From a plasmid: a DNA stretch of 64,000 nt. The translations under genes and the position numbers were made by a program. Below the pieces are notes generated by a model. It was not told the DNA's origin, searched no databases, and worked only from the letters and a program-made list of their open reading frames with translations. Shown here in pieces: positions 39,805 to 42,452 of the stretch. Positions within the stretch are counted from its first letter, which is position 1. Each line of letters opens with the position of its first letter. The stretch is taken from NCBI RefSeq assembly GCF_988243305.1, contig NZ_OZ547137.1; one strand, written 5' to 3'.

Positions 39805-40233
39805 TCAGAATAATTTTTTCATTTTAAGACGCACATCATTCATTGCCTCCTGCACCGAATCAGTAGCAGAAGGAGGCATTTTTTCAGCAGATTGCGAAGC
39901 ACCGAGTTCAGTCAACACAGCTCTGATATCGGCCTGAGAAGGCTTCCATCCAGTCGTCTGACTGAGTAAGGTTACAACCTGATCTGCTGAAAACTCCTCG
40001 CTCAAAATGGCAGTCAGCAATACAGGCAGGCGAGGATCAAGTTGGTGTAACGCCATTCCAGAAATAAATGCATTCCGGAACAGCTCACCACGCTCAGAAC
40101 GCGGAACGGACTCTATCGCTTCCAAAGTTTGAAAGTCTGCAGCTTTTTCCGGATGCAGATAAAGTGTGTATTTTTTCCTTTTCCGTTCATCGTCCACAAT
40201 ATTACTCCTCTTTGAAAGCCGCGATAGCTTCAA
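39805..40233 (-). CDS. stbB: ParR/StbB-like partition adaptor (downstream of the ParM-like gene)
   Basis: Small protein directly downstream of and overlapping the actin-like ATPase gene; start uncertain. Confidence 0.65.
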   Translation of the reverse strand: MKLSRLSKRSNIVDDERKRKKYTLYLHPEKAADFQTLEAIESVPRSERGELFRNAFISGMALHQLDPRLPVLLTAILSEEFSADQVVTLLSQTTGWKPSQADIRAVLTELGASQSAEKMPPSATDSVQEAMNDVRLKMKKLF

Positions 40234-41173
40234 CCAGTGCTGTCTGTGGCGACTCCATCATCACTACTTTTTGCCCAAGATGGTGCCATGCCGTTTTTAT
40301 CGAATCATAGATCAACGGGGCCCCACCACCGACAACATAAACACGATTCACATGATGGAAATCACCGAGCTCATTGACTACTTGCTCCCCCAAACTGGCA
40401 ATAGCCCCCTCAATGGTATTAAGGACCAGATCAGTTTTTGTTTCGTCATTTATAACCTGCCGAACAAAGTCCGGGTCATTACGACGTTTAATCAATTCAT
40501 CTGCAACGAGGAAACTGGTATCACTGGATGCCATGCGCAATGCACTCATTGCAGCTTTCGTAACTGAAGACACACCAATGCCAGAATTACCATGAATGGC
40601 ACTTACAGAGTCAAATTGACCAACGATAACACCAACATCAAGCGTAGTGCCGCCAATATCAACTACCAGCGATTTTTCGAACTGACCAACTTTATCCACG
40701 ACCAGACGAGAAAACACAGCTGGCAATGATTCAGGCATCACATCAACGTGTTCAATGGTGAAAACATCGCCTTTATTAAGACGAATCGGCCTCATTAAAT
40801 TCTCAATTTTACGCTGAATGTTGAGTTCATTTTTTTGACACTCTTTCGTATAGAACTCACTGATAGGCAAAGTCACAGTCAATGATACAGGCTGAGGCGC
40901 TAATCCACTATTCAGTAAAGCGTGATGCACAGCTAACAGGTTAACATCCGTATATTGATACTCAATATGAGTCGTAAGAATAGATTGGTTGCTAACTTCA
41001 TCATACGTGTATTTTTTACCATCCAGTTCATAGTTAAATGTCTGGCGAATTCCTAACCCGTCAACCTTCCATCCATGACGAAATGAGTTTTGCGACAACG
41101 ACTTACAGATTTCCCCATTATCATTCCATGCCAACTTGATTGTTGTTGAACCATCATCGCAGTATACGTTCAT
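40202..41173 (-). CDS. stbA: ParM/StbA actin-like plasmid segregation ATPase
   Basis: 323 aa, N-terminal DDGSTTIKL phosphate-binding motif and DIGGTTLD; ParM-like. Confidence 0.85.
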   Translation of the reverse strand: MNVYCDDGSTTIKLAWNDNGEICKSLSQNSFRHGWKVDGLGIRQTFNYELDGKKYTYDEVSNQSILTTHIEYQYTDVNLLAVHHALLNSGLAPQPVSLTVTLPISEFYTKECQKNELNIQRKIENLMRPIRLNKGDVFTIEHVDVMPESLPAVFSRLVVDKVGQFEKSLVVDIGGTTLDVGVIVGQFDSVSAIHGNSGIGVSSVTKAAMSALRMASSDTSFLVADELIKRRNDPDFVRQVINDETKTDLVLNTIEGAIASLGEQVVNELGDFHHVNRVYVVGGGAPLIYDSIKTAWHHLGQKVVMMESPQTALVEAIAAFKEE

Positions 41174-41401
41174 CTATAGCCCCTTAAATACTCAATCTGA
41201 GTAAATCATTGTTTCTGGTTGCAAGGTAATACTCAATTTGAGCACCATCATAGTTATGAAATCACAAAACACAAGTATTATTTATTACATCACATGACAC
41301 ACTTCATATTTCATACTTCATAAATATGAACATATATTGACACCTCAGGTTACCGTGTCAAAATATCATCATACTTCACACATCACATTTATGAGGTTGC
41401 A

Positions 41402-42046
41402 ATGATTACTGTAGTTGGTGGGAACAAAGGTGGTTCAGGGAAAACTACCATTGCATCAAACCTGGCTATTGCTCTCGCAAATAAAGGAAGGGAAGTCTGC
41501 CTGTTAAACGGAGATCTACAACGAACAGCCGCAAAACATCATGCGGAACGAGAAGCTGCAGGACTGTTACCAGCAATAACCCTTGTTGAGAAATTTGATA
41601 ACCTGACACAAACACTACAGGCTCTGAATGAAAAGTTCGATGATGTAATAGTGGATGTCGCAGGAAGAAACTCAAAGGAATTCATAACGAGTGGAGTTGT
41701 CGCACATCAAATAATTGCGCCACTACAGTGTTCTCAACCAGATCTGGATACTCTTACAGAACTAGAACAACAGATAGACGCAATGCGTAACCTTAACCCG
41801 GAACTTAAGGTTTATTGTTTACAAAGTATGGCAACAACCAATCCGGTTTTGAGGGGAAATGAGAGAAAAGAATTCCTTGAATATCTTGAAGAATTCCCAA
41901 CAATTCAAGTCCTTGATTCAGTTATTTGTTTCAGAAAAGTCTATCGCGATTGCATGAGCAACGGCACCGGTGTAGTAGAAACGAACAATACAGCAGCCAA
42001 AGCAGAAATTGAACATTTAATGAATGAGGTATTTGGCCCATGGTGA
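41402..42046 (+). CDS. ParA/ParF-family partition ATPase
   Basis: Deviant Walker A GGNKGGSGKTT; 214 aa. Confidence 0.8.
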   Translation: MITVVGGNKGGSGKTTIASNLAIALANKGREVCLLNGDLQRTAAKHHAEREAAGLLPAITLVEKFDNLTQTLQALNEKFDDVIVDVAGRNSKEFITSGVVAHQIIAPLQCSQPDLDTLTELEQQIDAMRNLNPELKVYCLQSMATTNPVLRGNERKEFLEYLEEFPTIQVLDSVICFRKVYRDCMSNGTGVVETNNTAAKAEIEHLMNEVFGPW

Positions 42047-42315
42047 AGAAACCCAGCCAGCAAGCATTAAACAGAGCTGCAGTTACGGTAGAACAAGCAG
42101 AGGCTCTGGCTCAGCGCCTTGCGGATAAACCATACGGCGCGCCGGAAAAACCCGAACCAGAAAAACAATGTCGGACGACAATCTCTCTTGGTGAAAGCAT
42201 GCTTGTCACAATAGAAGATCTGGCATTGAGGAATAAACGCAATGGTAAAGATCCAAAAAATGTAAGTGCCATCGTCAGAGTAGCCCTTGAGCAATACTTA
42301 AAAACACTAACGTAA
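42040..42315 (+). CDS. ParG-like small partition/DNA-binding protein
   Basis: 91 aa, overlaps the ParA-like gene end; C-terminal RHH-like region VSAIVRVALEQYLK. Confidence 0.6.
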   Translation: MVKKPSQQALNRAAVTVEQAEALAQRLADKPYGAPEKPEPEKQCRTTISLGESMLVTIEDLALRNKRNGKDPKNVSAIVRVALEQYLKTLT

Positions 42316-42452
42316 TAATCAATAAGTTATTACTTATGAAATCACACTTGTGAATTCATACTGTTTAAGCACCCTTGCATACAAGAGATCACATATTGCA
42401 GTGGTCTCTTTTTTTACAGAATAAATCACAATTCATAATTATGATTTATGAA

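What the first reader, a model, noticed from the sequence alone, without database searches (positions are those of the whole stretch)
39805..42450. Two different partition systems arranged back to back around a repeat-rich intergenic region
A ParM/ParR-like (actin-type) pair on the minus strand and a ParA/ParG-like (Walker-type) pair on the plus strand diverge from 41174..41401, which holds repeated atgaaatcac / catatttcata motifs. A second repeat/palindrome cluster follows the ParG-like gene (~42330-42450, aattcataattatgatttatgaatt). These are candidate centromere sites; coexistence of two systems on one segment may reflect a cointegrate history.
Basis: partly seen in the sequence, partly recalled or inferred. 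Interest (0 to 1): 0.4.

Follow-up and report, generated by a model that had tools for sequence, protein, structure and literature searches.

The report
The known pB171 double partition locus
This segment is a near-identical copy of the well-studied "double par locus" of E. coli virulence plasmid pB171, in which two different plasmid-segregation machines share one control region, so it is real and correctly read but already known and very common.

Summary
Window 39805-42452 is the double par locus of E. coli plasmid pB171. It holds par1 (parM-parR, actin type, minus strand) and par2 (parA-parB, Walker type Ib with a small ribbon-helix-helix adaptor, plus strand). The two operons diverge from a 228-bp shared region, parC1, and a second centromere array, parC2, follows parB.

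- ParR is 129/130 identical to the crystallised pB171 ParR (PDB 2JD3).
- The exact ParA sequence carries the UniRef name of pB171 ParA (Q0H055).
- The hexamer (A/T)TCA(C/T)A occurs 11 times in parC1 and 9 times in parC2. Shuffles give about 3 and 1.3, and no other stretch of the 64 kb has more than 3.
- The whole locus is in about 995 plasmid records and 755 of 5,426 complete E. coli genomes.
- The cointegrate idea gets no support: the two halves have the same G+C, and no record in the rows sampled holds only one half.

One loose end remains. The distal part of parC2 (hairpin plus 36-bp palindrome) also sits beside a ResD-like recombinase gene in about 530 plasmids that lack the par genes.

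The parts
39805..40197 (-). parR (stbB) of par1: the ribbon-helix-helix centromere-binding adaptor of the actin-type system, 130 aa with a GTG start
   Evidence: 129/130 identical to PDB 2JD3 'StbB protein', which is pB171 ParR (identified as such in PMC3074162). Pfam Plasmid_stab_B E 9e-30. Start and stop codons and an AGGAG ribosome-binding site checked.
40202..41173 (-). parM (stbA) of par1: actin-like segregation ATPase, 323 aa
   Evidence: Pfam StbA_N E 7.5e-65 and ParM C-terminal domain E 4.3e-44. Matches R1 ParM (PDB 1mwk) at E 3.9e-76, 43% identity over 291 aligned residues.
41174..41401 (.). parC1: the shared 228-bp control and centromere region between the two divergent operons, 32% G+C
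   Evidence: The literature names this region parC1 (PMC4270457; PMC7602700).
41187..41201 (.). ParR direct repeat, proximal copy (AATACTCAATCTGAG). It lies just upstream of the parM ribosome-binding site.
   Evidence: (family D8): the 15-mer occurs only twice in the window. [quoted passage not shown]
41228..41242 (.). ParR direct repeat, distal copy (AATACTCAATTTGAG), 41 bp from the first. It overlaps the candidate -35 of the parMR promoter.
41208..41236 (-). Candidate parMR promoter P1: -35 TTGAGT (41236-41231), 17-nt spacer, -10 AACAAT (41213-41208). Picked by eye and inferred only.
   Evidence: It matches 8 of 12 consensus positions, below the threshold of the scan, which found no minus-strand promoter in parC1.
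41247..41395 (.). ParB-type hexamer array of parC1: 11 perfect (A/T)TCA(C/T)A sites plus one 5/6 site, in groups at 41247-41266, 41289-41294, 41303-41330 and 41368-41395. Most are spaced 7 bp apart, as three direct sites followed by one inverted site.
   Evidence: 11 observed against 3.0 +/- 1.4 in shuffles; 0 of 5000 shuffles reach 11.
41337..41364 (+). Candidate parAB promoter P2: TTGACA, 16-nt spacer, TG-extended CAAAAT. Hexamer groups flank it on both sides.
   Evidence: 10 of 12 consensus positions, the best site in the region.
41402..42046 (+). parA of par2: short (type Ib) Walker-type partition ATPase, 214 aa. The deviant Walker A motif KGGSGKT lies at residues 9-15 and there is no N-terminal DNA-binding domain.
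   Evidence: The exact sequence carries the UniRef name RepID=Q0H055_ECOLX, and Q0H055 is given as pB171 ParA in PMC13245405. Pfam P-loop families. NCBIfam ParA_partition E 6.7e-34. Weak match to ParF (PDB 4dzz), E 1.2e-7.
42040..42315 (+). parB of par2: small ribbon-helix-helix centromere-binding protein, 91 aa, overlapping parA by 7 nt
   Evidence: Pfam RHH_1 21.7 bits against a cutoff of 20.5, at residues 45-88. A low-confidence model shows strand-helix-helix at residues 47-90. Sources name it a CopG-family regulator. PMC2441792 lists pB171 ParB as an RHH centromere-binding protein.
42316..42452 (.). parC2: the second centromere array, downstream of parB, 137 bp, 28% G+C, with 9 perfect hexamers
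   Evidence: 9 observed against 1.3 +/- 1.05 in shuffles; 0 of 5000 shuffles reach 9. Dual arrays up- and downstream are reported for pB171 in PMC7602700.
42335..42360 (.). Proximal hexamer cluster of parC2: two head-to-head pairs, TATGAAATCACA and TGTGAATTCATA
   Evidence: 4 sites in 63 bp against 0.34 +/- 0.55 in shuffles.
42383..42410 (+). Intrinsic terminator-like hairpin inside parC2, followed by seven T (10-bp stem). It is the likely end of the parAB transcript and contains one ATCACA hexamer.
   Evidence: Folding gives -13.2 kcal/mol, z = -3.3 against shuffles.
42421..42456 (.). Distal palindromic hexamer cluster of parC2 (ATAAATCACAATTCATAA / TTATGATTTATGAATTAT). It abuts and overlaps the stop codon of the ResD-like recombinase gene.
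   Evidence: (I9, I17). It is also present, with the hairpin, next to the recombinase gene in about 530 plasmids without par genes.

Best explanation
Window 39805-42452 is a copy of the double par locus first described on E. coli virulence plasmid pB171. Here it sits on an enteroaggregative (pAA-type) IncF plasmid.

Two complete and mechanistically different segregation systems are transcribed divergently from one 228-bp region, parC1.

par1 (type II). ParR dimers bind the two direct repeats at 41187 and 41228. This forms the partition complex and represses the parMR promoter. ParM, an actin-like ATPase, polymerises between ParR-bound plasmid copies and pushes them apart.

par2 (type Ib). The small ribbon-helix-helix protein ParB binds cooperatively to arrays of (A/T)TCA(C/T)A hexamers. 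The arrays lie in parC1, around the parAB promoter, which gives autoregulation, and in parC2, downstream of parB. ParB-bound plasmids stimulate nucleoid-bound ParA-ATP, and the resulting ParA gradients or oscillations space the plasmids over the nucleoid.

What is shown here: gene identities, near-identity to the pB171 proteins, the repeat arrays and their non-random density, the promoter and terminator candidates, conservation of the two-array layout, and covariation of repeat sequence with the ParB recognition strand in homologues.

What is taken from published work on pB171 and not tested here: the binding itself, repression, ParB cross-repression of the par1 promoter, ParA oscillation and plasmid stabilisation.
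For: Identity with pB171:
- ParR is 129/130 identical to PDB 2JD3.
- The exact ParA sequence belongs to the UniRef entry named for Q0H055, which PMC13245405 lists as pB171 ParA.

Gene families.

Anatomy matches the literature:
- parC1-parA-parB-parC2 (PMC4270457).
- Dual repeat arrays up- and downstream, with the upstream array regulatory (PMC7602700).
- Two ParR direct repeats upstream of parM (PMC9426499).
- ParB as an RHH protein working with a type Ib ParA, and two parC sites (PMC2441792).

Repeat statistics: 11 and 9 hexamers against 3.0 and 1.3 in shuffles, with at most 3 in any other stretch of the window. The ParR 15-mer occurs exactly twice.

The P2 promoter is flanked by hexamer groups, and a terminator hairpin follows parB.

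Comparative support:
- An Aeromonas par2-only locus (ParA 82%, ParB 70% identical, recognition strand KQCRTTISL unchanged) has the same hexamers at 7-bp spacing upstream of parA and a second array downstream of parB.
- A Klebsiella homologue (ParA 58%, ParB 44% identical, recognition strand changed) has arrays in both places but built from a different 8-bp unit.

Prevalence: about 995 plasmid records hold the full locus at 98.4% identity or more in the rows sampled, and 755 of 5,426 complete E. coli genomes hold it.
Against: Nothing contradicts it, but the evidence has limits.

- The primary pB171 papers (Ebersbach & Gerdes 2001; Ringgaard et al. 2007, two papers) are not held in the library. 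The repeat numbers I recall from them (17 in parC1, 18 in parC2) exceed the 11 and 9 perfect hexamers counted here, so degenerate sites must be included in the published counts.
- pB171 itself (AB024946, NC_002142) is not in the plasmid collection, so DNA-level identity to pB171 was not measured directly.
- No consensus promoter for parMR was found by the scan.
- The ParB structure model is of low confidence, pLDDT 58.
- The distal part of parC2 also occurs without par genes, so assigning it to par2 rests on the literature definition of parC2 and on its hexamer content only.
Confidence: 0.95

Rival explanations
1. The distal part of the downstream repeat region (hairpin 42383-42410 plus palindrome 42421-42456) belongs to the neighbouring ccdAB/ResD-like recombinase module, not to par2. 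It might be a recombinase target site or an operator. Under this reading the working parC2 is only the proximal cluster just after parB.
For: About 530 plasmid records match only window 42379-42450, and the records inspected carry no par genes nearby. In the three inspected (pO26-Vir, pF95-2, pE57-1) the segment lies immediately 3' of a homologous recombinase gene. The other neighbour there is colicin M immunity or IS1. In pE57-1 the palindrome stretch is 48/50 identical, while the middle of the recombinase gene is only 64-80% identical. The element is a near-perfect palindrome, as recombinase core sites are. G+C jumps from 28% to 55% exactly at this border.
Against: The palindrome is built from the same hexamers, at the same 7-8-bp spacing, as parC1 and the proximal parC2 cluster. 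The par-less plasmids also keep hexamer-like remnants to the left of the hairpin (TGTGAA and TATGAA), which fits a decayed parC2 left behind when the par genes were replaced. The 3' end of the recombinase gene is equally well conserved in pE57-1, so the conservation may reflect a shared recombination block and not selection on the palindrome. From memory, the F-plasmid ResD site rfsF lies upstream of ccdA, not downstream of resD. The spacer between the best 13-nt arms is only 3 nt, shorter than typical tyrosine-recombinase cores.
Confidence: 0.15
2. The two systems lie together because two replicons, each with its own partition system, fused (a cointegrate). On this view the arrangement is a historical accident and the systems are not functionally integrated.
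For: The host plasmids are multi-replicon IncFIA/FIB/FII mosaics rich in insertion sequences. par2 homologues occur alone in Aeromonas and Klebsiella plasmids. A different E. coli plasmid has parM-parR-parA-parB in tandem instead of divergent. Together these show that the two kinds of system combine as modules.
Against: The G+C of the two halves is the same, 43.5% and 42.7%. No IS, repeat scar or junction lies between them. They share one compact 228-bp region in which the two sets of binding sites and promoters are interleaved. In the rows sampled down the ranking of 1,533 matching plasmid records, every match was the whole locus or only the last 72 bp, apart from one locus cut at the record start. 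Published work, cited from memory (Ringgaard et al. 2007, J Biol Chem 282:3134), reports that ParB also represses the par1 promoter, which is regulatory integration.
Confidence: 0.05
3. Only one of the two systems is active on this plasmid, and the other is a silent or decaying passenger.
For: Neighbouring genes on this plasmid are decaying: umuC has an internal deletion and SIR2 is split by an IS. I did not check whether the window holds a further partition system. Its closest relative is typed IncFIA, IncFIB and IncFII, so redundancy is possible.
Against: All four reading frames are intact and have ribosome-binding sites. ParR differs from the crystallised protein at one residue. The ParA sequence is the exact sequence that UniRef files under Q0H055. 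Both repeat sets are intact. The locus is kept at 98.4% identity or more in the sampled full-length rows of about 995 plasmid records, which argues for purifying selection on the whole unit.
Confidence: 0.05

Closest known systems
Double par locus of E. coli EPEC plasmid pB171: par1 = parM/parR, par2 = parA/parB, cis sites parC1 and parC2 (Ebersbach & Gerdes 2001 PNAS 98:15078; Ringgaard et al. 2007 J Biol Chem 282:3134 and 282:28216)
   Same: Everything that could be tested matches. The parMR and parAB operons diverge from a shared region of about 200 bp. ParR is 129/130 identical to the crystallised pB171 ParR. ParA is the sequence filed under the pB171 ParA UniProt entry. There are two ParR direct repeats upstream of parM, and ParB-type repeat arrays both upstream of parA and downstream of parB.
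   Different: The host plasmid is an enteroaggregative pAA-type IncF plasmid with aat, aggDCBA, aggR and aap, not the EPEC plasmid pB171. ParR has one substitution, A for V at residue 104 of the 130-aa protein. DNA identity to pB171 itself was not measured because that record is not in the collections.
parMRC of plasmid R1 (type II, actin-like)
   Same: The gene order is the same: centromere and promoter, then parM, then parR. ParM is homologous (43% identity, E 4e-76). The centromere consists of ParR-bound direct repeats around the promoter.
   Different: R1 parC has two sets of five 11-bp iterons (PMC2241845 abstract; PMC9426499). This locus has only two repeats, of a different sequence, and shares its control region with a second partition system.
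   Same: The architecture is the same kind: a short Walker ATPase without an N-terminal DNA-binding domain, plus a small ribbon-helix-helix adaptor with a flexible N-terminal tail. The centromere is made of short degenerate repeats, and the adaptor also acts as repressor (PMC3130281 abstract; PMC2441792).
   Different: ParA matches ParF only weakly (E 1.2e-7). ParB shows no detectable sequence similarity to ParG. parH is a single upstream array of tetramer boxes, whereas this locus has hexamers in two arrays flanking the operon.
delta/omega/parS of Streptococcus pyogenes plasmid pSM19035 (type Ib)
   Same: The small RHH adaptor (omega) binds contiguous 7-bp units, 5'-WATCACW-3', in direct and inverted orientation. 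These units overlap promoters and occur at several sites (PMC3074150). Here the hexamers sit mostly 7 bp apart in direct and inverted orientation. Three of them (AATCACA at 41260, 42340 and 42424) fit the omega heptad exactly.
   Different: No sequence similarity between ParB and omega was detected. The host phylum is different. pB171 ParB pairs centromere fragments without ParA, unlike omega (PMC3074150).

Membership tests
pB171-type double par locus | Divergent parM-parR and parA-parB operons sharing one central cis-acting region of about 200 bp | tested here: met
   The genes lie at 39805-41173 (-) and 41402-42315 (+), separated by 228 bp.
pB171-type double par locus | Proteins orthologous to pB171 ParR and ParA | tested here: met
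   ParR is 129/130 identical to PDB 2JD3. The exact ParA sequence carries the UniRef name Q0H055, which PMC13245405 gives as pB171 ParA. ParM and ParB were not compared directly with the pB171 sequences.
pB171-type double par locus | Two ParR direct repeats upstream of parM | tested here: met
   AATACTCAATyTGAG at 41187 and 41228, the only two copies in 64 kb. The literature statement is in PMC9426499.
pB171-type double par locus | ParB-binding repeat arrays both upstream of parA (parC1) and downstream of parB (parC2) | tested here: met
   11 and 9 hexamers against 3.0 and 1.3 in shuffles. The literature statement is in PMC7602700. Sequence only; binding was not tested.
pB171-type double par locus | Each system stabilises a plasmid; ParB represses both promoters; ParA oscillates over the nucleoid | not testable with these tools
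   These are experimental properties reported for pB171, partly cited from memory. No computation here addresses them.
Type II (ParMRC) partition systems | Actin-fold ATPase ParM followed by the adaptor ParR, with a repeat-bearing centromere upstream | tested here: met
   Pfam StbA_N, the ParM C-terminal domain and Plasmid_stab_B. Match to R1 ParM structures at E 4e-76. Repeats.
Type Ib partition systems (short ParA plus RHH adaptor) | ParA of about 210 aa with a deviant Walker A motif (KGGxGK[ST]) at the extreme N-terminus and no N-terminal helix-turn-helix domain | tested here: met
   The protein is 214 aa with KGGSGKT at residues 9-15. P-loop family matches start at residue 2-8. The definition is in PMC2441792. 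The score against NCBIfam NF041546 ParA_partition is 117 bits, below that model's equivalog cutoff of 180.
Type Ib partition systems (short ParA plus RHH adaptor) | [quoted passage not shown] | tested here: met
   Pfam RHH_1 at residues 45-88, 21.7 bits against a cutoff of 20.5. The single-sequence model shows strand-helix-helix at 47-90 but has low confidence, pLDDT 58.
   A search of all solved-structure sequences up to E = 1 returned no ParG, omega or other RHH adaptor. The resemblance is of kind, not of family.

The most novel reading that the evidence does not exclude
The hairpin plus 36-bp hexamer palindrome at the far end of parC2 (42383-42456) may be a separately conserved element tied to the neighbouring ResD-like tyrosine recombinase gene. 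It is retained next to that gene in about 530 plasmids that lack the par genes. If the recombinase acts at or near this palindrome, or if ParB-type hexamers there serve a second protein, multimer resolution and partition would be physically coupled at one site. That has not been described for this locus. The alternative, and more likely, reading is that it is a leftover piece of parC2 from plasmids in which the par genes were replaced.
Probability: 0.1. Interest if true: 0.4.

Novelty: already known. Interest (0 to 1): 0.1.

Why it matters
It matters little as a discovery. The pB171 double par locus has been a model system for plasmid segregation since 2001, and this copy differs from it by about one residue per protein tested. 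It is useful mainly for annotation. RefSeq labels parB 'hypothetical protein' or 'CopG family regulator', and parA 'AAA family ATPase' or 'MipZ'. A model-system partition locus carried by about 14% of complete E. coli genomes is therefore poorly named. The map given here of the ParR repeats, hexamer arrays, promoter and terminator can be transferred to those records. The observation that the far end of parC2 travels with a recombinase gene in par-less plasmids is a small open question about how these maintenance modules are assembled.

Tried and rejected
- Primary pB171 papers. Look-ups by PMC64986, the two JBC DOIs, PMC2775997, PMC2034672 and PMC3191983 all failed. Published footprint maps could not be overlaid, so secondary papers were used instead.
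- pB171 records AB024946 and NC_002142 are not in the plasmid collection.
- Sequence search of ParB against solved structures gave only chance-level hits to an adenylate cyclase. It shows no sequence link to ParG or omega.
- The single-sequence structure prediction of ParB gave pLDDT 58. It was too poor for a fold search, so none was run.
- The consensus promoter scan found no minus-strand promoter for parMR. The P1 candidate given is by eye and is marked as inferred.
- The NCBIfam scan gave nothing for ParR or ParB. For ParM it gave only a far-below-cutoff hit to PRTRC system protein D (21.8 bits against a cutoff of 214.8), which I disregarded.
- The cointegrate idea was checked through G+C, the record distribution and distant homologues. 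None supports it.
- I considered whether the tandem parM-parR-parA-parB of pKFS-D08_2 is an inverted relative of this locus. ParM is 43% and ParR 32% identical, but its small protein after parA shows no similarity to ParB. It is an independent pairing of the two kinds of system.
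Full report
**What is there**

The ORF list and the sequence show four genes in two divergent pairs.

| Gene | Coordinates | Strand | Length |
|---|---|---|---|
| parR | 39805-40197 | - | 130 aa |
| parM | 40202-41173 | - | 323 aa |
| parA | 41402-42046 | + | 214 aa |
| parB | 42040-42315 | + | 91 aa |

- The mechanical ORF for parR starts at an upstream TTG and is 142 aa long. The GTG at 40197 has an AGGAG ribosome-binding site. It also matches the first residue of the crystallised protein and the RefSeq annotation.
- parB overlaps the parA stop codon by 7 nt.
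- The two pairs are separated by 228 bp (41174-41401). A 137-bp gap (42316-42452) follows parB, up to the stop codon of a tyrosine recombinase gene on the minus strand.

**Gene identities**

- ParM matches Pfam StbA_N (E 7.5e-65) and the ParM C-terminal domain (E 4.3e-44). It aligns with the R1 ParM structures at E 3.9e-76 and 43% identity.
- ParR matches Plasmid_stab_B (E 9e-30). It is 129/130 identical to PDB 2JD3, 'StbB protein', which PMC3074162 identifies as pB171 ParR.
- ParA matches the ParA/MinD/MipZ P-loop families from its second residue, so it has no N-terminal DNA-binding domain. It carries the deviant Walker A motif KGGSGKT at residues 9-15. Its exact sequence is in the protein collection under the UniRef name Q0H055_ECOLX. 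PMC13245405 lists Q0H055 as pB171 ParA.
- ParB passes the Pfam RHH_1 threshold, 21.7 bits against 20.5, at residues 45-88. Its sources name it a CopG-family regulator. It has no detectable sequence relative among solved structures. A single-sequence model is of low confidence but shows strand-helix-helix at residues 47-90 after a disordered tail.

**The repeats**

Two kinds of repeat are present.

1. Two 15-nt direct repeats, AATACTCAATCTGAG at 41187 and AATACTCAATTTGAG at 41228, lie 41 bp apart in the parM-proximal third of the intergenic region (D8). This 15-mer occurs nowhere else in the window.
2. The hexamer (A/T)TCA(C/T)A occurs on either strand, 11 times in 41243-41401 and 9 times in 42316-42452.
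   - Dinucleotide-preserving shuffles of the same stretches give 3.0 +/- 1.4 and 1.3 +/- 1.05. None of 5000 shuffles reaches the observed counts.
   - No other 137- or 150-nt stretch of the 64 kb, AT-rich ones included, has more than 3.
   - I chose the motif after seeing parC1, so parC2 and the Aeromonas locus below are the unbiased tests.
   - The sites are mostly 7 bp apart. They form groups of three direct sites plus one inverted site (41303-41330, 41368-41395), head-to-head pairs (41255/41261, 42335/42341, 42349/42355), and a two-plus-two palindrome (42425-42452).

**Signals**

- The best sigma-70-like site in the region is on the plus strand: TTGACA at 41337, a 16-nt spacer, then a TG-extended CAAAAT ending at 41364. 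Hexamer groups lie on both sides of it, as expected if ParB represses its own operon.
- No minus-strand promoter passed the scan. By eye, TTGAGT (inside the distal ParR repeat), 17 nt, then AACAAT is a candidate. This is inference only.
- Inside parC2, a 10-bp hairpin followed by seven T (42383-42410) looks like the parAB terminator. It folds at -13.2 kcal/mol, z = -3.3.

**Identification**

The anatomy matches the published double par locus of pB171.

- Constructs are described as 'parC1+, parA+, parB, parC2+' (PMC4270457).
- pB171 is cited as having repeat arrays both upstream and downstream of its par operon, with the upstream array regulatory (PMC7602700).
- pB171 ParB is classed with ParG and omega as an RHH adaptor working with a type Ib ParA, with two parC sites (PMC2441792).
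- pB171 ParB pairs centromere fragments without ParA (PMC3074150).
- From memory of the primary papers, which the library does not hold: ParR and ParB bind cooperatively to unrelated repeat sets in parC1, ParB also represses the par1 promoter, both loci stabilise test plasmids, and ParA oscillates over the nucleoid.

**Distribution**

- Megablast of 39805-42450 finds 1,533 plasmid records, of which 995 hold at least 80% of the query. Rows sampled across the ranking show identities of 98.4% or more for the full-length matches. Hosts are Escherichia, Salmonella, Klebsiella, Shigella and Enterobacter.
- Without its last 72 bp, the locus is in 755 of 5,426 complete E. coli genomes, almost always on plasmids.
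- The window itself is 99.86% identical over 24.4 kb to pRHBSTW-00670_2, an IncFIA/FIB/FII plasmid carrying aggDCBA, aggR, aap and aar. The left flank carries the aat dispersin exporter. The host is therefore an enteroaggregative pAA-type plasmid.

**Comparative test of the repeat-protein link**

A protein search with ParA finds more distant par2-type loci.

| Homologue | ParA identity | ParB identity | ParB recognition strand | Repeats |
|---|---|---|---|---|
| Aeromonas salmonicida plasmid | 82% | 70% | KQCRTTISL, unchanged | Same hexamers: 10 sites at 7-bp spacing upstream of parA, and a second array just after parB. No parMR. |
| Klebsiella IncFII plasmid | 58% | 44% | Changed | Arrays in both positions, but of 8-bp units: ATGATAAA x4 upstream, TTTATGAT x5 downstream. 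|

The two-array layout is thus a conserved feature of this kind of system. The repeat sequence changes together with the adaptor's recognition strand. This supports ParB binding to these repeats without any binding assay.

**History**

- par2-type loci occur alone.
- One E. coli plasmid has parM-parR-parA-parB in tandem. Its ParM is 43% and its ParR 32% identical, and the small protein after parA is unrelated to ParB.
- The two kinds of system therefore combine as modules.
- Nothing indicates a cointegrate. The two halves have equal G+C, 43.5% and 42.7%. There is no junction or IS between them, and the binding sites of both systems are interleaved in one 228-bp region. In the rows sampled down the ranking, no record holds only one half at megablast sensitivity.

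**Loose end**

- About 530 of the 1,533 records match only window 42379-42450, which is the hairpin plus the distal palindrome.
- In pO26-Vir and pF95-2 this segment lies between the colicin M immunity gene and a recombinase gene 95% identical in protein to the one here. In pE57-1 it lies between IS1 and a more diverged recombinase gene.
- In pE57-1 the palindrome stretch is 48/50 identical, while the middle of the gene is 64-80% identical. The 3' end of the gene is equally well conserved, however.
- The par-less plasmids also keep hexamer-like remnants left of the hairpin.
- The likeliest reading is a relic of parC2 left when the par genes were replaced. A role tied to the recombinase cannot be excluded.

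**Verdict**

Noticed in passing
window 40957-40971: A third near-copy of the ParR-type repeat (gATACTCAATaTGAG, 1 mismatch in the 13-nt core) lies inside the parM coding sequence, about 230 bp from the other two. About 0.08 such matches are expected by chance in the whole window (my estimate). I do not recall it being described as a ParR site.
   Followed up: partly
window 42379-42456; loci L002 4001-4070, L003 4001-4072, L004 4001-4042: The terminator-like hairpin and distal palindrome of parC2 are also found, at 93-98% identity, immediately 3' of a ResD-like tyrosine recombinase gene in about 530 plasmids without the par genes. In the ColV/ColM-type plasmids inspected it sits next to the colicin M immunity gene.
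   Followed up: partly
window 44454-48629: A SIR2-HerA anti-phage defence pair. HerA (44454-46262, -) is intact (PADLOC E 2e-221). The SIR2 gene is split into a C-terminal half (46259-46750) and an N-terminal half (48105-48629) by a roughly 1.26-kb IS3-like element (46849-48107), so the system is probably inactive. The same IS is present at 7569-8826 and 14795-16059.
   Followed up: partly
window 38268-39773: A umuD/umuC (error-prone polymerase V) pair lies next to parR. umuC is broken into two overlapping ORFs (38645-39538 and 39234-39773). Blastn breakpoints show that about 100 bp present in the intact umuC of two other plasmids (L009, L001) are missing at about 39494-39504, so it is probably a pseudogene.
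   Followed up: partly
window 41260-41266, 42340-42346, 42424-42430: Three of the hexamer sites read AATCACA with their 5' neighbour. This fits exactly the 7-bp unit WATCACW bound by the unrelated RHH adaptor omega of the Gram-positive plasmid pSM19035. The 7-bp spacing and the mix of direct and inverted sites are also the same.
   Followed up: no
window 42453-43788: A ccdA (43570-43788), ccdB (ORF 43263-43595; annotated as 306 nt in related plasmids) and ResD-like tyrosine recombinase (42453-43262) module lies directly next to parC2, all on the minus strand. Its G+C is 55%, against 43% for the par genes, so it is a compositionally distinct maintenance module.
   Followed up: partly
locus L008 1905-4422 (E. 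coli plasmid pKFS-D08_2, CP125036.1): A different double partition arrangement: parM-parR-parA-small ORF all in tandem on one strand. ParM is 43%, ParR 32% and ParA 43% identical to those here, but the small protein after parA is unrelated to ParB. The neighbouring genes include glnS and a PAAR-domain gene.
   Followed up: partly
E. coli genome search: 20 of the 776 places where the locus occurs in complete E. coli genomes are on chromosomes, not plasmids. These may be integrated plasmids or assembly joins.
   Followed up: no
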